In this document: positions 13,100-48,902 of the stretch, one piece after another
Position numbering within the stretch: the stretch's first letter is position 1
Layout of the letters: each line of letters starts with the position of its first letter
Origin: a virus
Lineage: Duplodnaviria; Caudoviricetes
IMG/VR virus record: IMGVR_UViG_3300028591_005215
Coordinates: 215,750 to 279,749 of that record
DNA length: 64,000 bases
Reading direction: 5' to 3' (one strand)
Made by a program: the position numbers and the translations under genes
The notes under the pieces: generated by a model
What the model saw: only the letters and a program-made list of their open reading frames with translations
The model's database searches: none
Told to the model about the DNA's origin: nothing

Positions 13100-16000
13100 G
13101 AAAATATCAATGGAAGATATGAAATCAAGATTACCTGGGATTATACCTTCTTTAAATAAAAAATGGGTTATTAATTATGGTAATTATTATTCTGAATATG
13201 AATCATATTCAGAAGCATACCGTGATGCAATAAACGCATCCATTGATGTTTCTAAAATCGAAGAAAAAGTTGAATTTACTGACATATATACTGATAATAT
13301 AGCTAATGCCAAAATTAATGGAAATTATGGTATGATTCCAAGTGATATAGAAATACCTTATGAATATATTGACTATATAACTGATTATACAGATATATAC
13401 ATTAATATACCAGATGATAATGGTGGGTATTACACAATTAATCAAATAAGTAAGAAAGACTTATTGAATAGGGCTGAAGAAGGGTCTATTTATTATTTCT
13501 ATTACGGAAGGGATATTTACTCTATTAACTGTACATCCAAAACAAAATATTTAGAAATAGTTGACGTTCTTGAACGTGCCAAAAAACATAAGTTTTTAAC
13601 ATATAGAACGTTGCAAAAATGGTATTCATTTTTTAATGAATACCATAATTTGCTTAATTCTGGTAAAGGTAAAACTAAATATAAAAATGCGCTTGAATAT
13701 TACGAATATGAAATAGAAGATAAAAGTAATAATGAATTGAAAAAATATGAAGAATACGATTCATTATATAATTCAAGAGGTGGTGATTATTTTTATAACT
13801 GGATTAATATGACTTGTTTGCCTAAATATAGGCTGCCAAAAAAATTCATAGAAAAAAATGGGTTCTCTTATTTGTATTATGGCACTGCAATTAAATTTTA
13901 TTATTGGCTTAAAGAACGTTATGAGAAATATAATAAATTTCTTGATAATGCTAATAAATATACATTTAGTATTAATGTGTCAGAAAAAACAAATGACATT
14001 AAAGGGCTTGGTATAGATAATGCTTTGTTTACAAGCGAACTTGTTGATAAAGATTATTCTGATTACAACCTATATACTATTGAAGAGAATACAAATGACT
14101 TAGATTTTAATAGCTTTATGCTAGATGGAGATAATATAGTTAGTTGGCCTGAAATCATCGTAACACCGAAAGCATATACTGATTCTGATTTAAAAACTAT
14201 TTGTATGTCTTCTGATGATTGTTGTGACTGCTTTAAATATTTTAAACGTGGTGGCAATGAGCTTTATTATGATTTAAAGGATTGGGTAGATAGCCTATCT
14301 ACAAAGCCAACATCATTAAAATCAGCATCATTAGTCATACCAATAACTTTATCAGTAAATATTGATGATATTGGCGAAATGGCTATATTTTCTAATGAAT
14401 ACAAAGAAAAAACAAATTATAAACCTACAATTAGCACTGACGAAAACGGTGGTACTGTTGTTAATAGACCTATAATAACTAATAATGAAACAGGTGACAT
14501 TTTTGTTGATAATAATGTTTATATGATTAAAAATGAATCAGTTGGATATATCCAAAATGATTATAAAGAAAATGTGTTCAACGAAGAAGATTGGATTGAT
14601 TATACTGGATATTATGTTAACAAACATAAAAATGAATTTGTAACTGACATTTTAGAATTTGCTTACAATGACAATGGTAAAATAGTATATAATCCTTCAG
14701 ATGAAAATATGTCTATTGACTATGATATAAACTATTATGATAATGGATTTTTCCTAATAAATGATAAAATTTATCCTGTAGAGCTTAAAAAATATGTTTA
14801 TTATAAAGGCTTCAAAAATTCATTGGCTAATGGACTTATGCTTTCAGTAGATGAAACTGCTGACGGCCAATATTACACTAAAATAAATAATAGGATATTT
14901 TACGCAATAAAAAAAGGTAACAATTATTATTTTAATTTTAAAACTTATAAAGCATGCATTGATACATCTGATTATGATTGTGAAGTATTGCCTGAAAAGG
15001 ATGGTAAAATAGGTTGCATAAAATTCGCTAATACTTTATATGTAGCAGATAAAAATGTTTTAACGATTGATATAAATGGCACTGATACAACTTTTACTAA
15101 AATAGATGGGTATGTTGACACTAAAGAAGGAAGATTCTACATTAAAGATAATAAAATTTTTGAAATAGAATCTGAATTAAGTAATGTAGATTGGAAAAAA
15201 TATGATGTAAAAGATGGCAAATTAAAAATTGTACATCCTTATACCATATATAAATGTGATGAAATAAGTGGCCACACAAATTCTAAATTGGACTTATTTA
15301 GGCAAACTAACGTCTTGCATGATGATTTAGGTAATGAAATGCCTGGATACTATGAACCTTCATATGATGAAAGGACAAAAACAAAATATGCCCAACCATA
15401 TAATGATTGCTTACTTGATTTATATTATAAGGTTGGTAATGTTTCACAATTGTCTAAAAATAACAATTTAACCATAGATGGTGATTCAGAAAAACAATTT
15501 TTCAATGGCAATATTATGGAATCAATGGAAATATACCACACAATAAATGGTAAGAAATTAGAAAAAAGTTCTATAATATTAAATAATTCCATGAACGATT
15601 ATGACAAAAAGAATGTTTTAACTACAATAGAATTGTCAATGGATATAGTGAATACTTTTCTCAATAGTGATAATGAAAAAGAACTTGAAAAATACGTAGA
15701 TGACATTTCCAATTTAAATGAAGCTGTCATTGAAACACATTGCGTTTTTACCTATTATATAGGGGCTATTCTAAGAGAACGTATTACGCTAAAAGAATAT
15801 AATGAATATAGTGGGTATGAACTTGCAGCTGGTAAAAATCATGGGGTTAAGTATGTGGAAGACGATGTATTAAAATTGGAAAATTGTTTATATAATTTAT
15901 TGGATGGCTCTTCTTTTACTCTAAGATATTATAATATTATTCAAAACACAAGAAGAATCACACTTAATGATTATAATAATCAACTAAAGGATGTGAATGA

Positions 16001-43937: not shown

Positions 43938-44336
43938 TTAACCTTGATTCTCAATGTACTTTCTGATTATATCAGGACTTGCTTCACCAATAGAGCATAC
44001 AAAATATCCATCGGACCAAAAACTATGTTCTTTCCAAAAATGTTTTCTTAGCATTGGTTGAAACTCTTTCCAAAGTCTATTTGTGCTTACTTGTTTCAAT
44101 ATTCTCACAATTGAAGTAACAGTAATATTTGGTGGATAGTTAATAAGTAGATGTATATGGTCTTTGTCTGTTTCCATTATCTCAATGTCAAAGTCACACT
44201 TACTTTCTACTTCTTTGAAAACAGAAATAACACAATCTCTAATATCAGAAAGTAATAGTTGTTTTCTGTATTTACAAACAAAAATCAAGTGGCATTTCAA
44301 ATAAAACTTGTGTCTATTTTTAGAAAAATAACTCAT
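43938..44336 (-). CDS. tnpA: IS200/IS605 Y1 (HUH) transposase
   Basis: HLIFVCKYR, DHIHLL (HUH), FWSDGYF, YIENQ. Confidence 0.95.
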   Translation of the reverse strand: MSYFSKNRHKFYLKCHLIFVCKYRKQLLLSDIRDCVISVFKEVESKCDFDIEIMETDKDHIHLLINYPPNITVTSIVRILKQVSTNRLWKEFQPMLRKHFWKEHSFWSDGYFVCSIGEASPDIIRKYIENQG

Positions 44337-44429
44337 AATCAAAAATATTTTTTACAAAAATAGTAACTTTTTGTAAAATATCTGATATTTATTATTGAAA
44401 AGCATTTAGTTTTTAACTATATTTTAAGT

Positions 44430-45626
44430 ATGAAAGTGATTTTAAAGACATATAAGTACAGAATGTACCCAAATAAGGAGCAACAACAAATGCTTGCAAA
44501 ATATTTTGGGTCAGTCCGTTTTGTCTATAATCACTTCCTTGCTGAAAGAAAACAGCAATACACAGAGAGTGGTAAAAGTGATAACTACTATGCACAAGCA
44601 AGCACACTTACCAAGCTAAAAAAACAAGAAGATTATTCGTGGCTGAAGGAAATTAATTCACAAACACTTCAATTTGTACTTAGAAATCTTGAAACAGCAT
44701 ACACAAACTTCTTTAGGGGTAATGCAAGATTTCCAAGATTCAAGGCAAAGAAGAATGGTGGCAGTTTCCATATACCACAGCATTGTTCTGTTGAAAATGG
44801 TAGAATCTACATACCAAAGTTTAAGGGTGGCATAAAGATAGTAGAACACAGACCATTTAAAGGTGGTGATGTTAGAAATATGACAATCTCTGTCACACCA
44901 AGTGGAAAATATTATGTTTCCATACTAACGCAAGTTACATATGAACCTTTACAGAAAACCAATGCAAAGGTTGGTATAGACTTGGGGCTAAAAGACTTGG
45001 TTATTACAAGTGATGGCAAAAAGTATTCAAGCAATAAGTTTATCAAACGTTACTCAAAAGAACTTGCAAAAGCACAAAAGCATTTGTCAAAGAAGCAGAA
45101 GGGTAGTAATACTTGGGATAGACAAAGAATAAAGGTTGCAAGAATACAAGAGAAGATTCATAACTGTAGGTTTGACAAATTGCATAAGATTAGTACTGAC
45201 TTAATCAGAAACTATGATGTAATTTGTTGTGAGGATTTAAACGTTAAAGGCATGCAAAGAAATCATAGACTTGCTCAGACAATATCTGATGCAAGTTGGG
45301 GAGTATTTCTTTCAATGCTTACATATAAAGCAGTTATGAACAATAAGCAAGTAGTGAAGATAGACAGATTCTATCCATCTTCAAAGACTTGTCATTGCTG
45401 TGGATGGGTAAAAGAAGACTTGCTATTGAAGGATAGAGAATGGGCTTGCCCTCATTGTGGAAACACACTTGACAGAGATATTAATGCTGCGATAAATATC
45501 CTTGCAGAAGGATTAAGAAATATATCGGCAGGAACTGTCGATTACACTGATGGAGCAGATGTAAGACCCTTTCAAGGGCAATCAGCAATGAAGTCAGAAG
45601 CCCACAAATCTTTAGTTTGTGGGTAG
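44430..45626 (+). CDS. tnpB: TnpB RNA-guided nuclease
   Basis: YKYRMYP HTH, GIDLG, CEDL, SSKTCHCCG..CPHCG zinc finger, DRDINAAINI. Confidence 0.95.
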   Translation: MKVILKTYKYRMYPNKEQQQMLAKYFGSVRFVYNHFLAERKQQYTESGKSDNYYAQASTLTKLKKQEDYSWLKEINSQTLQFVLRNLETAYTNFFRGNARFPRFKAKKNGGSFHIPQHCSVENGRIYIPKFKGGIKIVEHRPFKGGDVRNMTISVTPSGKYYVSILTQVTYEPLQKTNAKVGIDLGLKDLVITSDGKKYSSNKFIKRYSKELAKAQKHLSKKQKGSNTWDRQRIKVARIQEKIHNCRFDKLHKISTDLIRNYDVICCEDLNVKGMQRNHRLAQTISDASWGVFLSMLTYKAVMNNKQVVKIDRFYPSSKTCHCCGWVKEDLLLKDREWACPHCGNTLDRDINAAINILAEGLRNISAGTVDYTDGADVRPFQGQSAMKSEAHKSLVCG

Positions 45627-45684
45627 TTCACGATTCTTCTAAATGGTTGAAGTTGGTATAGATAAAGTAACAAACAAATAATTT

Positions 45685-47439: not shown

Positions 47440-47669
47440 GGGAAAGTGGCGGAATTGGTAGACGCTGGGGACATTGTATGGCTCGATTTTAGTGAATAAT
47501 GAAAAAATATATTTTATTCGCAGAGCCCTTTATTATCCACTGCTTTAGGTAAGTCCATCCTTTGGTGTGAGAAATCATGTAATGGCATCCACTTTGTAAT
47601 ATCGTTTAATATAAACGAATTATGATGATAAGGACGTAAATCGTGTAGGTTCGAATCCTACCTTTCTCA
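47440..47669 (+). ncRNA. tRNA-like RNA (~230 nt): acceptor, D and T arms around a large insert
   Basis: GGGAAAG/CUUUCUC acceptor, UGGCGGAAUUGGUAGACGC D arm, GUAGG-UUCGAAU-CCUAC T arm; no recognisable anticodon arm. Confidence 0.75.
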
Positions 47670-47855: not shown

Positions 47856-47900
47856 ATTATTTTATACCTCGATGGTGAAATTGGTAAACACACGAGACCT

Positions 47901-48733
47901 AATTTAATTTGAGTGCTATGGCGAGAAATCCCATAGTAGAATCTCCCTAAAACGGTGGAAATCCTTTTTATGTTAGTTATATCACTCCGAGAGTGCTCGT
48001 ATAGGATGGGGAAAATGATATATGTCCAATAAGACCCTGATACGCATCTGCGTAGAGCGCTGTCTTGAATTAACAAGCAACAGATAGGACAAACTAACAA
48101 CACTAACCAATAATGCGTAAGGATAATACAGTGCTAAATTGAGAAGCTTGCATTAACTCTTTTGAAAGGTGAAATTAGATGGGAGTTAAAATCTGCTCAG
48201 CTTTTAATAACAAAAATGTGTCTCATAAAAACGCTTTTAGTGAAAAACAAATAGGCAGCAGTACTACCGAATTCACGCTTGTGGACTATCCAACTATGAA
48301 TGACAGACTTAGAAATAAGGAACTAAAAAGTAGCGATAGGTTGAAACAAGAAGTTAATAATGAACAGACAAATTTGTTCAAGTTTTAACATACTGTAGAG
48401 AGTATATAGGAGATGCCTAAGTTGAAATTATGTGCAAATAAAAGTGGGCTTGGAAGTAGCCATCTTTTAAAGAGTTAATCACTCTGGGAAGGAAGTAACC
48501 TTCAGGGAGGTAGGTATGCATCCCTCTGGCCGATGCATTTGGAGTTAAAAGCCAAAATGTTTGGGCAGCAGAACGTCAGTGGATTATTTGGTGTAACAAC
48601 ACATATTTGTACATTACTTGCAAGAATTTCAATATGGTAATAATGTATTCCAGACTACAACAAGCAAGTCGATAATTAAAGAGTGGGAAGCAAAGACGCT
48701 CCTTGTTTGGCTATGGTAACATAGTGTAGCAGG
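47901..48733 (+). ncRNA. Group I intron (trnL-UAA/IC3-like), 833 nt, with large peripheral inserts
   Basis: U^AA insertion site, P2 with GAAA loop, P3 aucucc/ggagau, P7 gagagua (48398-48404)/uauucc (48646-48651), P8, P9 GUAA hairpin, terminal AGG (omega G). Confidence 0.85.
48430..48614 (+). ncRNA. 23S rRNA H43/H44 (L11-binding) mimic in intron loop P8
   Basis: GUGGGCUUGGAAGUAGCCAUCUUUUAAAGAGU..GUGUAACAAC enclosed by an 11-bp stem. Confidence 0.75.
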
Positions 48734-48804
48734 AAAATTTCGTGAATCGTAAGATTCTTGAGGGTTCGAGTCCCTCTCGAGGTACTATAATGACTTTACC
48801 TAAA

Positions 48805-48875
48805 TGTGGTATGATGTAACGGTAACATAGCAGATTCTGATTCTGCATTTATAGGTTCGAATCCTATTACCACAA
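48805..48875 (+). tRNA. tRNA-Gln(CUG)
   Basis: UGUGGUA/UACCACA acceptor, GCAGA-UUCUGAU-UCUGC anticodon arm, AUAGG-UUCGAAU-CCUAU T arm; CCA not encoded. Confidence 0.9.
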
Positions 48876-48902
48876 CAATTTAAGCGAAGCAAAAAAATAT
48901 TA

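What the first reader, a model, noticed from the sequence alone, without database searches (positions are those of the whole stretch)
47901..48733. Oversized trnL-type group I intron in a phage tRNA, loaded with RNA domains instead of a homing endonuclease
Seen: insertion between U34 and A35 of tRNA-Leu(UAA), a recognisable P1-P9 core with intact G-binding pair, 833 nt in all, and inserts of ~150 nt (P5), ~255 nt (P6) and ~185 nt (P8). There is no ORF over 69 aa on the sense strand and no LAGLIDADG, HNH or GIY-YIG motif. Known: this site and these boundary sequences match the cyanobacterial/plastid trnL(UAA) intron, and large phage introns usually owe their size to endonuclease ORFs. Inference: the intron is a carrier that releases a stable multi-domain ncRNA during infection.
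Basis: partly seen in the sequence, partly recalled or inferred. Interest (0 to 1): 0.8.

Follow-up and report, generated by a model that had tools for sequence, protein, structure and literature searches.

The report
Megaphage tRNA intron carrying ribosome-mimic RNA
The leucine tRNA gene of a giant rumen phage is split by an 833-base group I intron from a large phage intron family that Rfam does not detect, and this copy has also acquired a leftover transposon guide RNA and a complete RNA mimic of the ribosome's L11-binding site, which splicing would release.

Summary
Window 47866-47900 and 48734-48784 join into a tRNA-Leu(UAA). The 833 nt between them have the full group I topology: U.G at the 5' splice site, a G-C guanosine-binding pair after a bulged A, and omegaG.

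Rfam's group I model misses it. An exact 20-mer of its P7-P3' core found 23 relatives in IMG/VR megaphage contigs. They sit in the anticodon loops of Leu, Arg, Ser, Met and probably Trp tRNAs. They share a near-identical core and have four variable slots (P5, P6, P8, P9a) whose cassettes are shuffled between copies. One relative carries an I-HmuI-like HNH endonuclease.

The window's extra size has three sources:
- a unique 133-nt P5 cassette;
- a 76-nt P6 cassette plus a 164-nt relic of a TnpB gene end (omegaRNA scaffold) in the P6-P7 linker;
- a complete GTPase-associated-centre (uL11-site) mimic grafted onto P8.

This scan has already found that mimic family free-standing in other phages. 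Rumen metatranscriptomes hold this intron's RNA but not its flanks, and relatives show circle junctions.

The carrier idea is partly supported. One insert is a real independent ncRNA and one is endonuclease debris. Splicing of this copy is unproven.

The parts
47866..47900 (+). 5' exon: tRNA-Leu(UAA) positions 1-34. C47899 stands at position 33, where relatives and a close strain have U.
   Evidence: ARAGORN on the joined exons. DNA run X2 reads T at 47899, 27.3 of 27.3 depth. Relatives have ...ACTT|.
47901..48733 (+). Group I intron (IC3/trnL-like), 833 nt, ending in omegaG 48733.
   Evidence: Hand-read core, 23 homologues and covariation. No Rfam hit.
48734..48784 (+). 3' exon: tRNA-Leu positions 35-73, with long variable arm, T arm and discriminator A. 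CCA is not encoded.
47897..47914 (+). P1. U47900.G47911 marks the 5' splice site. The guide GAG(U) is at 47911-14. C47899 x A47912 is a mismatch in this strain.
   Evidence: The guide covaries with the exon in relatives: GAG/CUU, GGA/UCU, GUG/CAU.
47915..47937 (+). P2 hairpin with a GAAA-containing loop L2 (47922-30).
   Evidence: P2 pairs 21-22 of 22 canonical, with compensatory TA<->AT and C-G->A-T changes.
47941..47966 (+). P3 5' strand (47941-46), J3/4 UAAAA, P4 5' strand (47953-57), P5 5' strand (47961-66).
   Evidence: Near-identical in all relatives. P4 and P5 pair counts.
47967..48099 (+). P5-slot cassette, 133 nt, unique to this intron lineage.
   Evidence: No blastn hit in the own genome or in about 200 loci. 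Slot length in relatives is 39-126 nt. Folding z = -1.4.
48100..48144 (+). Conserved hairpin ACAC-UAACCAAUAAU-GCGU (C48116 deviates), P5 3' strand (48119-24), P4 3' strand (48127-31; A48130 gives a G.A mismatch), P6 5' strand (48140-44).
   Evidence: 22 of 23 relatives have G-C where the window has G-A. No read variant at 48130 or 48116 in four runs.
48145..48220 (+). P6-slot cassette, 76 nt, homologous to the P9a-slot cassette of relative L021.
   Evidence: 81-82% identity over 75-76 nt; the only cross-slot match.
48221..48229 (+). P6 3' strand UCUCA (48221-25) and linker UAAA.
   Evidence: P6 covaries strongly in relatives.
48230..48393 (+). Relic of an IS605-type TnpB element: the last ~46 codons, omegaRNA scaffold and right end ...CATAC(TGT). 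It sits in the linker between P6 and J6/7. The 69-aa ORF at 48179-48388 is its coding trace.
   Evidence: 83% DNA identity to the 3' end of the Lak-A1 tnpB gene. tblastn matches only residues 376-420 of 420. That protein carries the Pfam TnpB domains. Helices covary across copies.
48394..48414 (+). J6/7 UGUA; P7 5' strand G48398, bulged A48399, GAGUAU 48400-05; J7/3 AUA; P3 3' strand GGAGAU 48409-14.
   Evidence: An exact 20-mer shared with 23 IMG/VR loci. Parallels GUGCAGAGACUCGACGGGAGC of the cyanobacterial trnL intron.
48415..48429 (+). P8 5' strand, with CCUAAG (48416-21) as half of an 11-nt tetraloop receptor.
   Evidence: Conserved in relatives. Pairs with 48625-38, which holds UAUGG at 48633-37.
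48430..48614 (+). P8-slot graft. An 11-bp helix (48430-40/48604-14) carries a complete mimic of the 23S rRNA GTPase-associated centre: 5' half 48441-75 (H43 and 1067 loop), inner insert 48476-48586, 3' half 48587-48603 (H44 and 1095 loop).
   Evidence: Pattern match at 48447-73, with 0 expected by chance. 63 non-rRNA phage contigs share both halves, and the closing stem and the 1092-1099 pair covary. It is the only copy in the 280-kb genome.
48615..48651 (+). Conserved palindrome CUUGCAAG, P8 3' strand (48625-38), J8/7, and P7 3' strand GUAUUCC (48645-51; C48650 pairs with G48400).
   Evidence: segment D.
48652..48733 (+). P9 domain: P9 48653-59/48725-30, P9a 48661-48705 (short 35-nt slot), P9b 48711-24 with a GUAA loop, omegaG 48733.
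   Evidence: P9, P9a and P9b covariation; fold.

Best explanation
SHOWN. The window comes from a Lak-like rumen megaphage. Its only tRNA-Leu(UAA) gene is interrupted between U34 and A35 by an 833-nt group I intron of the IC3/trnL type. The intron belongs to a prolific, phage-restricted family found in the anticodon loops of several tRNA isotypes. The family has a near-invariant catalytic core and four peripheral slots (P5, P6, P8, P9a). These slots hold unrelated 30-260-nt cassettes that recombine between copies. Some members carry an I-HmuI-like HNH homing endonuclease next to P9.

This copy is the largest ORF-less member, for three reasons. It has a long unique P5 cassette. It has a 164-nt orphan TnpB omegaRNA/right-end relic in the linker between P6 and J6/7. 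And its P8 tip has been replaced by a complete GAC-mimic RNA, a family that is otherwise free-standing in phage tRNA arrays.

INFERRED. The pre-tRNA folds P1 with guide GAG(U). Exogenous G attacks after U47900, omegaG48733 docks at G48400-C48650, and the exons are ligated into tRNA-Leu. The excised intron, linear or circular, persists. Because the GAC mimic projects from the P8 tip, away from the core and beyond the L2 receptor, it should fold independently. The intron would then deliver this phage's only copy of the mimic. The TnpB relic and the P5 and P6 cassettes are most simply tolerated passengers.
For: - tRNA halves and splice sites.
- Core and family: 23 loci share the exact P7-P3' 20-mer. 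Aligned core segments are near-identical while the slots are unrelated.
- Covariation is seen in P1 (guide against exon), P2, P6, P9, P9a and P9b.
- IC3 hallmarks are present: a GAAA L2, the 11-nt receptor in P8, and motif parallels with a cyanobacterial trnL intron.
- Cassette shuffling, including one cross-slot case.
- HNH endonuclease ORF in relative L028.
- TnpB relic.
- GAC mimic.
- The genome contig holds one family intron, one GAC mimic and no second tRNA-Leu.
- RNA: contigs identical to window-specific parts occur in three metatranscriptome runs. Examples are X4, 351 nt with 0 differences over 47938-48288, and X3, 249 nt over 48394-48642. The flanks at 48766-48900 have no RNA cover but depth 32 in DNA from the same sample as X3.
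- Contigs from RNA runs join the omegaG end of relatives' introns to a point a few nt inside their own 5' ends, as circularised introns would (table 5c).
- A close strain has the canonical U33.
Against: - Rfam RF00028 gives no hit even at E<=10, for the window or for 10 relatives. Three cyanobacterial trnL introns score 65-82 bits.
- This copy deviates from the consensus of all 23 relatives at three places: C47899 (breaks the middle P1 pair and replaces U33), A48130 (a G.A mismatch in P4) and C48116 (an A.C mismatch in a conserved hairpin).
- The 164-nt insertion next to J6/7 has no precedent I know of, and it could disable folding.
- No exon-exon joint and no circle junction of this particular copy were among the rows listed.
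- RNA evidence comes from assembled contigs at low depth (5-38).
- Folding energies of the inserts are not exceptional (z -1.2 to -1.8).
- No other intron-borne GAC mimic was found, so the graft may be a recent accident.
Confidence: 0.6

Rival explanations
1. Dead gene. The intron no longer splices and the tRNA-Leu is a pseudogene. The relic next to J6/7, the P4 and hairpin mismatches and C33 are signs of decay. All the inserts, including the GAC mimic, are neutral debris that piled up in a disabled element.
For: Three consensus-breaking substitutions unique among 24 copies, plus the 164-nt insertion beside J6/7. No splice junction was listed. TnpB 3'-end relics are scattered through these phages' tRNA regions (L020, L033, L218, L224, own genome 131925).
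Against: The rest of the core matches the family consensus, including the 20-mer, P2, P8, P7' and P9. It is the only tRNA-Leu in the contig. A close strain has U33. The same intron with the same inserts occurs, with few changes, in samples from several studies and years, and its RNA is seen without its flanks. J6/7 proper (UGUA) and P6 are intact, because the insertion lies in a family-specific 6-nt linker.
Confidence: 0.25
2. The intron is a dedicated carrier, and its three inserts are all functional RNA domains that act together as one stable multi-domain ncRNA during infection.
For: Modular slots across the family. The P8 insert is an intact independent ncRNA. The omegaRNA-relic helices still covary with coding copies. 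Intron RNA is present in metatranscriptomes.
Against: The P5 insert has no homologue at all. The 'P6' insert is mostly TnpB gene-end debris with no cognate TnpB in the contig; the resident TnpB is only 40% identical and has a different 3' end. No insert has a significant folding signal. No second phage shows the same combination.
Confidence: 0.1
3. Selfish guide-RNA reading. The orphan omegaRNA is still used in trans. Its guide would be the sequence after the right end, AGAGAGUAUAUAGG, which is the most conserved stretch of the whole intron family. A compatible TnpB could then cut 'empty' family introns in co-infecting phages, giving homing or exclusion.
For: The relic keeps a full-length (~150 nt) scaffold with conserved helices and abuts the family's invariant 20-mer. 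The family is abundant in the same habitat.
Against: There is no cognate TnpB in the 280-kb contig. No copy with a full IS at this site was found. The TAM is unknown. Two other relics (L218, L224) share the 9-nt flank AGAGAGTAT at a non-intron locus, which fits illegitimate recombination at a 12-nt microhomology better.
Confidence: 0.04

Closest known systems
Cyanobacterial/plastid tRNA-Leu(UAA) group I intron and the other bacterial tRNA anticodon-loop introns (subgroup IC3; Anabaena, Azoarcus)
   Same: Same insertion site (U34|A35) and the same boundary logic (U.G, omegaG, 3' exon AAAA). Same helix order. Parallel core motifs: GUGYAGAGA...GGAG, AAGG-AAU-P4', and an L2 GAAA with the 11-nt receptor in P8. 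Occurs in several tRNA isotypes at several loop positions, as catalogued for bacteria.
   Different: It is 3-4 times longer (464-833 nt against about 220-260). It is not detected by RF00028. It is phage-restricted: the 20-mer is absent from 185,579 bacterial and archaeal genomes. It has four slots with shuffled cassettes and a long P6-J6/7 linker.
IStrons (group I intron fused to an IS200/IS605 element with TnpB and omegaRNA; Tourasse 2014 PMC4227781; Zedaveinyte 2023 preprint 10.1101/2023.11.20.567912)
   Same: A group I intron and IS605-type TnpB/omegaRNA sequence in one intervening sequence. The omegaRNA end lies next to ribozyme sequence.
   Different: Only the last ~150 nt of the IS survive, with no tnpA or tnpB ORF. 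From my own knowledge, not checked in the papers here, the IS part of an IStron lies 3' of the ribozyme core and ends at the 3' splice site. Here it lies inside the core, in the P6-P7 linker. No full copy at this site was found anywhere.
Phage GAC-mimic RNA family (free-standing mimics of 23S rRNA H42-H44, the uL11/thiostrepton site), seen earlier in this scan on other phages; I found no description of it
   Same: Both conserved halves, the split by a variable inner insert (46-359 nt in the family, 111-116 nt here depending on where the halves are bounded), the covarying closing stem and the H44 pair. Associated with tRNA genes.
   Different: Here it is not a separate gene between tRNAs. It is the tip of intron helix P8, so release would be by splicing rather than by tRNA-end processing. 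This is the only such case among 64 contigs and 24 introns examined.
Phage group I introns with homing endonucleases (T4 td/nrdB/sunY; SPO1 I-HmuI type)
   Same: Relative L028 carries an I-HmuI-like NUMOD4-HNH-NUMOD1 ORF and L031 carries its relic. The phage context is the same.
   Different: This copy has no endonuclease ORF. Those introns sit in protein-coding genes, not tRNAs.
Introns that carry other functional RNAs (twin-ribozyme introns with GIR1 in a peripheral helix; eukaryotic snoRNA- and miRNA-bearing introns)
   Same: A second, independently folding RNA nested in a peripheral part of an intron and released by splicing.
   Different: The cargo and the organisms differ. This is an analogy only, recalled from general knowledge and not tested here.

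Membership tests
Group I intron | 5' splice site after a U that forms a U.G wobble in P1 with an internal guide sequence | tested here: met
   U47900.G47911. The guide covaries with the exon in relatives (GAG/CUU, GGA/UCU, GUG/CAU). The neighbouring pair is mismatched in this strain (C47899) but U-A in strain X2.
Group I intron | omegaG as the last intron nucleotide, with exons joining into a functional RNA | tested here: met
   G48733. The joined exons give tRNA-Leu(taa), 87 nt.
Group I intron | P3-P9 core topology with a P3/P7 pseudoknot and the P4-P6 domain | tested here: met
   All helices were placed by hand. Covariation in 14-23 relatives supports P2, P6, P9, P9a and P9b. P4 and P5 are conserved and paired.
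Group I intron | Guanosine-binding G-C pair in P7 next to a bulged nucleotide | tested here: met
   G48398-C48651, bulged A48399, G48400-C48650, read from the sequence. Same arrangement as G(A)GACU/AGUCC in the cyanobacterial intron.
Group I intron | Match to the Rfam covariance model RF00028 at its gathering score (50 bits) | tested here: not met
   No hit at E<=10 in the window, nor at E<=1 in 10 relatives. Positive controls score 65-82 bits. Large inserts and divergence are the likely cause.
Group I intron | Self-splicing activity | not testable with these tools
   Indirect evidence only: intron RNA without its flanks, and circle-like joints for relatives in RNA runs.
IC3 / trnL(UAA)-type intron | Insertion between U34 and A35 of tRNA-Leu(UAA) | tested here: met
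   Seven family members sit in tRNA-Leu(UAA).
IC3 / trnL(UAA)-type intron | L2 GNRA tetraloop with an 11-nt receptor (CCUAAG/UAUGG) in P8, and a GNRA L9 | tested here: met
   GAAA in L2 (47922-30); CCUAAG at 48416-21 and UAUGG at 48633-37; GUAA in P9b (48716-19). The motifs are read from sequence. The docking itself is inferred from knowledge of Azoarcus.
IStron | An IS200/IS605 element with tnpB (and sometimes tnpA) ORFs inside the intron | tested here: not met
   Only residues 376-420 of a 420-aa TnpB are traceable. No Pfam domain in any intron ORF.
IStron | The IS part lies 3' of the ribozyme core, with the omegaRNA end at the 3' splice site | tested here: not met
   The relic lies at 48230-48393, between P6 and J6/7, 340 nt from the 3' splice site.
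TnpB omegaRNA | Homology to the 3' end of a tnpB gene plus the transposon right end, with conserved scaffold helices | tested here: met
   83% identity to Lak-A1. Compensatory changes in two helices across copies.
TnpB omegaRNA | A cognate TnpB protein encoded in the same genome | tested here: not met
   The only TnpB of this clade in the contig (window 44430-45650) is 40% identical and has a different 3' end. The genome is about 80% complete.
Phage GAC-mimic RNA | 5' half GU-N-GGCUU(A/G)GAAG(C/U)AGCCAUC(A/U)UUUAAAGAG, matching 23S 1058-1090 | tested here: met
   48447-48473 is an exact pattern match with 0 expected by chance. 27 of 30 nt are identical to E. coli.
Phage GAC-mimic RNA | 3' half UUUGG(U/C)GUA(A/G)(C/U)A(A/G)CACA (H44 and 1095 loop) plus a covarying closing stem | tested here: met
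   48587-48603. Closing helix 48430-40/48604-14. The family shows GU..AC against GC..GC covariation.
Phage GAC-mimic RNA | Binding of uL11 or GTPase factors | not testable with these tools
   Inferred from mimicry only.

The most novel reading that the evidence does not exclude
The intron family is a natural modular RNA scaffold. Its four peripheral slots take up cargo RNAs, which splicing then releases inside a stable, often circular, ribozyme shell. In this phage the sole copy of the ribosomal GAC decoy is delivered this way. Production of tRNA-Leu(UAA) and of the decoy would then be coupled, one decoy per tRNA. Other slot cassettes in the family may likewise be undiscovered functional RNAs.
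Probability: 0.25. Interest if true: 0.85.

Novelty: new variant of a known kind. Interest (0 to 1): 0.62.

Why it matters
1. It reveals a large, phage-specific family of tRNA group I introns that the standard Rfam model misses. tRNA sets of huge phages are therefore under-counted: this contig's only tRNA-Leu is invisible to routine tools.

2. The family combines a near-identical core with four freely exchanged peripheral cassettes. That makes it a natural experiment on what a group I core tolerates, and a possible natural template for displaying RNA cargo on a ribozyme scaffold.

3. This copy provides the first case seen in this scan of the undescribed GAC-mimic RNA embedded in another RNA. 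It shows that the mimic works, or at least survives, as a portable domain. It also gives a simple handle for testing its function: splice-dependent release.

4. It documents TnpB guide-RNA relics lodged inside a ribozyme core, an IStron-like association at a new position.

Tried and rejected
- **Rfam searches.** At the gathering score and at E<=10 on the window, RF00028 over the whole genome, and 10 relatives at E<=1, there was no group I hit at this locus. The model works on cyanobacterial controls. I treat this as a failure of the model on these insert-laden RNAs, not as evidence against an intron.
- **blastn of the P8 insert against E. coli genomes** gave no match. The method was too insensitive for a 27-nt match with 3 mismatches; direct comparison with rrlH shows the likeness.
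- **More TnpB remnants in the intron.** tblastn with small word size found only the last 46 residues.
- **Folding energies of the four inserts and of the P9 domain.** z was -1.2 to -1.8, uninformative.
- **A full IS at the same intron site.** The right-end/core junction gave 0 hits in IMG/VR. It gave 8 in JGI metagenomes, of which 6 are chance 18-mers and 2 are relics at a non-intron locus.
- **Another intron-borne GAC mimic.** There was none among 23 relatives or 63 mimic loci, and a P8-to-mimic pattern gave 0 hits in metagenomes.
- **Homologues in Lak-A1, B1 and C1.** The tRNA 3' half is absent with up to 3 mismatches.
- **RNA runs X4 and X5** do not cover 48479-48601. Many joints skip 48430-48616. 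These cannot be assigned to this phage rather than to relatives, so I draw no conclusion about a strain without the mimic.
- **No 47900->48734 exon joint and no 48733->47901 circle joint** were among the rows shown. tRNAs are poorly captured and the lists were truncated, so this counts neither way.
- **The joint 48740->47914** is ambiguous and was not used.
- **Minus-strand ORFs over the intron** (up to 144 aa stop to stop) have no Pfam family and are taken as chance.
Full report
**Context**

The window is 27-36% G+C over most of its length and lies at 215750-279749 of a 279,749-bp IMG/VR virus record, estimated 80% complete. Its only blastn relatives in GenBank phages are the Prevotella Lak megaphages. 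Runs holding the sequence are sheep, bovine and other gut metagenomes. In-frame TAG codons in otherwise intact genes, such as the TnpB at 44430-45650, fit the TAG recoding known for Lak phages, so I read ORFs under both codes.

**Checking the observation**

ARAGORN and Rfam see only tRNA-Gln(CUG) at 48805-48876. The sequence nevertheless shows two tRNA halves. The first is 47866-47900: acceptor ACCUCGA, a 3-bp D stem and anticodon stem CGAGA. The second is 48734-48784: AAAA, UUUCG, a long variable arm, the T arm and UCGAGGU-A. Joined in a script, they are called tRNA-Leu(taa), 87 nt. The anticodon loop is CCUAAAA, so position 33 is C rather than the near-universal U.

The 833 nt in between start right after a U and end in G48733. 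The longest sense ORF is 69 aa, or 71 aa stop to stop with TAG=Q. No intron ORF on either strand hits Pfam.

**Is it a group I intron?**

Rfam says no. RF00028 gives nothing at the gathering score or at E<=10, and nothing in a genome-wide search, which finds only a weak 27-bit hit upstream of the window. The model itself works: three cyanobacterial trnL introns fetched as controls score 65-82 bits.

Read by hand, however, the core is all there:
- P3 is AUCUCC 47941-46 with GGAGAU 48409-14.
- J3/4 is UAAAA.
- P4 is CGGUG 47953-57 with UACAG 48127-31.
- P5 is 47961-66 with 48119-24.
- P6 is UGAGA 48140-44 with UCUCA 48221-25.
- J6/7 is UGUA.
- P7 is G48398, bulged A48399 and GAGUAU 48400-05, paired with GUAUUCC 48645-51. 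This gives the canonical G-C guanosine-binding pair, G48400-C48650.
- P8 is 48415-29 with 48625-38.
- The P9 domain is a three-way junction ending in omegaG.

The stretch UGUAGAGAGUAUAUAGGAGAU parallels GUGCAGAGACUCGACGGGAGCU of the cyanobacterial intron. P8 carries CCUAAG/UAUGG, the 11-nt tetraloop receptor. L2 contains GAAA and P9b ends in GUAA. From my knowledge of the Azoarcus and Anabaena introns, this is the IC3 arrangement.

**Relatives settle it**

The exact 20-mer GTAGAGAGTATATAGGAGAT occurs in 23 IMG/VR loci and in none of 185,579 bacterial or archaeal genomes. Aligning these loci shows one intron family. ORF-less introns are 464-751 nt.

The guide sequence changes with the exon: GAG for CUU|, GGA for UCU|, GUG for CAU|. 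Compensatory changes support the helices:
- P2 shows TA<->AT in three copies and C-G->A-T in one.
- P6 has up to five pair types per position.
- P9 alternates U-A and C-G.
- P9a and P9b also covary.
- P4 and P5 are conserved and paired.

One member (L028) has a 171-aa NUMOD4-HNH_3-NUMOD1 (I-HmuI-like) ORF just after P7', and L031 keeps its relic. This is therefore an ordinary mobile group I lineage in kind. It is new as a family, it is phage-restricted, and Rfam cannot see it.

**Modular inserts**

Core segments are almost identical between copies, yet four slots hold unrelated sequence: P5 (39-133 nt), P6 (34-259), the P8 tip (39-187) and P9a (29-129, or 665 with the ORF). Identical cassettes recur in different combinations and in different host tRNAs, for example L018=L022 in P5 but L018=L029 in P6, and L012=L016 in P5. 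The window's P6 cassette (48145-48220) is 81-82% identical to the P9a cassette of L021, the one cross-slot case. The window has the longest P5 and P8 slots and the second-longest P6 region, which is why it is the largest ORF-less member.

**What the window's inserts are**

(a) The P5 cassette, 47967-48099, has no hit in the genome or in about 200 fetched loci. Its fold is unexceptional, z = -1.4.

- Positions 48250-48396 are 83% identical to the last 147 nt of a gene in Lak-A1.
- That gene is a 420-aa TnpB with HTH_OrfB_IS605, OrfB_IS605 and Cas12f1-like TNB domains.
- Only its residues 376-420 are traceable in the window. This is the stretch that doubles as the omegaRNA scaffold, followed by the right end ...AACATACTGT.
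- Two scaffold helices covary across copies: GGUAG/CUACC against GGGUG/CACCC, and ACUAUC/GAUAG against AGAUAC/GUGUCU.
- Similar orphan pieces lie between tRNAs in L020, in L033, and as a 56-nt stub elsewhere in this genome.

Family members read UCUCA-UAAAUG-UGUA-P7, whereas the window reads UCUCA-UAAA-[relic]-UGUA-P7. The relic therefore sits in a family-specific linker, and J6/7 proper is untouched.

The guide of such an omegaRNA would be the sequence after the right end, which here is the family's invariant core. However, the only related TnpB in the contig (44430-45650, next to an IS200-type TnpA at 43938-44342) is 40% identical and has a different 3' end. No full IS at this site exists in IMG/VR or the JGI metagenomes. 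Two relics in metagenomes (L218, L224) carry the same nine bases, AGAGAGTAT, after the right end but at a non-intron locus. That suggests the relic entered the intron by recombination at a 12-nt microhomology (TGTAGAGAGTAT) rather than by transposition. This last point is inference.

- 48447-48473 is a near copy of E. coli 23S 1062-1088, that is H43 with the 1067 loop. The degenerate pattern has 0 chance expectation in the window.
- The pattern hits 64 IMG/VR contigs, and only one of them is real rRNA, with 1303 nt aligned to rrlH.
- Most of the others, 43 of the 47 distinct sequences, share a 3' half, UUUGG(U/C)GUA(A/G)(C/U)A(A/G)CACA. This corresponds to H44 with the 1095 loop.
- The two halves are separated by a variable insert of 46-359 nt and closed by a covarying stem. 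The 1092-1099 pair alternates between G-U..A-C and G-C..G-C.
- The window has both halves (48441-75 and 48587-48603) and an inner insert, 48476-48586.
- Its closing stem is changed in a compensatory way (GG/CC to UA/UA) and continues as an 11-bp helix (48430-40/48604-14) stacked on P8.

The free-standing copies lie in tRNA arrays and match no Rfam family. Earlier agents of this scan reported the same family on other phages and also found no description of it; my two literature searches found none either. In this genome the intron-borne copy is the only one. It is also the only intron-borne one I could find.

**Is this copy alive?**

Against:
- Three substitutions are unique among the 24 copies: C47899 (the P1 middle pair and U33), A48130 (G.A in P4, where 22 of 23 copies have G-C) and C48116 (A.C in a covarying hairpin).
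- The relic sits beside J6/7.

For:
- Everything else in the core equals the consensus.
- It is the only tRNA-Leu in a contig with just two other standard tRNAs.
- A 17-kb DNA contig of a close strain reads T at 47899.
- The same intron with the same inserts recurs, with few changes, in runs from 11 studies.

RNA evidence comes from assembled contigs of three metatranscriptome runs, representing two samples:
- X4 has a 351-nt contig over 47938-48288 with no differences.
- X5 has contigs over 47937-48286 and 48259-48429.
- X3 has contigs over 47939-48127, 48099-48371 and 48394-48642, the last covering nearly the whole P8 graft (48430-48614).
- The flank 48766-48900 has zero RNA cover, although DNA from the same sample as X3 covers it at depth 32.

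This is a weak but consistent sign that intron RNA accumulates.

The conserved core bins reach summed depths up to 1.6e5, so the family as a whole is abundant in rumen RNA.

Several contigs from RNA runs run from a relative's omegaG end straight into its own 5' region, a few nucleotides in. An example is ...CATAG-AGTGGTAAG-AGAAGCTTGTTTAAGC-TAATTTGAG, which is L028-like. Truncated circular introns would give exactly this. It speaks for ribozyme activity of the family in vivo, not of this copy.

**Verdict**

The intron is a modular carrier in structure, and one passenger is a genuine independent ncRNA that splicing would release. Another passenger is nuclease-gene debris, and the third is of unknown origin. 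I put splicing competence at about 0.6 and a selected 'cargo' role for the GAC mimic at about 0.25-0.35.

In kind, this is a new variant of a known class, the tRNA anticodon-loop IC3 introns. It belongs to a new, large, phage-only family with exchangeable peripheral cassettes.

Noticed in passing
window 47440-47669: A second interrupted tRNA-like gene 200 nt upstream. It has a 7-bp acceptor (GGGAAAG/CTTTCTC), a Leu-type D arm and a canonical T arm, enclosing about 180 nt with no recognisable family-intron core. As the phage seems TAG-recoded, it might be a split suppressor tRNA. Unresolved.
   Followed up: partly
window 43938-45650: A complete IS200/IS605 element 2.2 kb upstream of the tRNA-Leu gene: TnpA (Y1_Tnp, minus strand, 43938-44342) and TnpB (406 aa with one in-frame TAG, 44430-45650). 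It is 40% identical to Lak-A1 TnpB.
   Followed up: partly
L015, L016, L017, L023, L025, L026, L027 (IMG/VR): A subgroup of the same ribozyme family lacks P9. Its P7' (AAUACUCU) is followed within about 5 nt by a complete tRNA-like gene. Its 5' flank is not a tRNA half in most copies (L015, L017, L023, L025, L027 read ...GTCAGCCCCTAAC|AA...; L016 differs). Rfam gives weak tmRNA/tRNA hits just downstream in L025. It may be an intron in another structured RNA, or a ribozyme acting as a processing element.
   Followed up: no
63 IMG/VR contigs (L012, L033-L095 except L085): The GAC-mimic RNA family is widespread in phage tRNA arrays. It has two conserved halves copying 23S H43 and H44, a variable inner insert of 46-359 nt and a covarying closing stem, and no Rfam family.
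   Followed up: partly
G000:213937-214114, about 1.6 kb upstream of the window start: A sub-threshold RF00028 hit (27 bits, E 7.8e-6).
   Followed up: no
L218 (about 13185-13202, minus) and L224 (5321-5338): Two metagenome contigs carry the same TnpB 3'-end relic followed by AGAGAGTAT, the same nine bases that follow the relic in the window, but then continue into unrelated non-intron sequence. The two contigs differ upstream of the omegaRNA scaffold.
   Followed up: partly
L028 2789-2903; L029 637-765 and 3448-3561: Sub-threshold Y RNA-like (YrlA, RF02553) hits of 31-49 bits in the tRNA arrays that hold family introns.
   Followed up: no
window 48617-48624 and all relatives: An invariant 8-nt palindrome, CUUGCAAG, lies on the 3' side of P8 just before the P8 base helix in nearly every family member (segment D). 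It could be a loop-loop or dimerisation site. Not examined.
   Followed up: no
L001 2958-4307 (Lak-A1): Directly downstream of the Lak-A1 tnpB lies a second 449-aa ORF with 11 in-frame TAG codons. Its length and composition look like another TnpB/Cas12-like gene. Not analysed.
   Followed up: no
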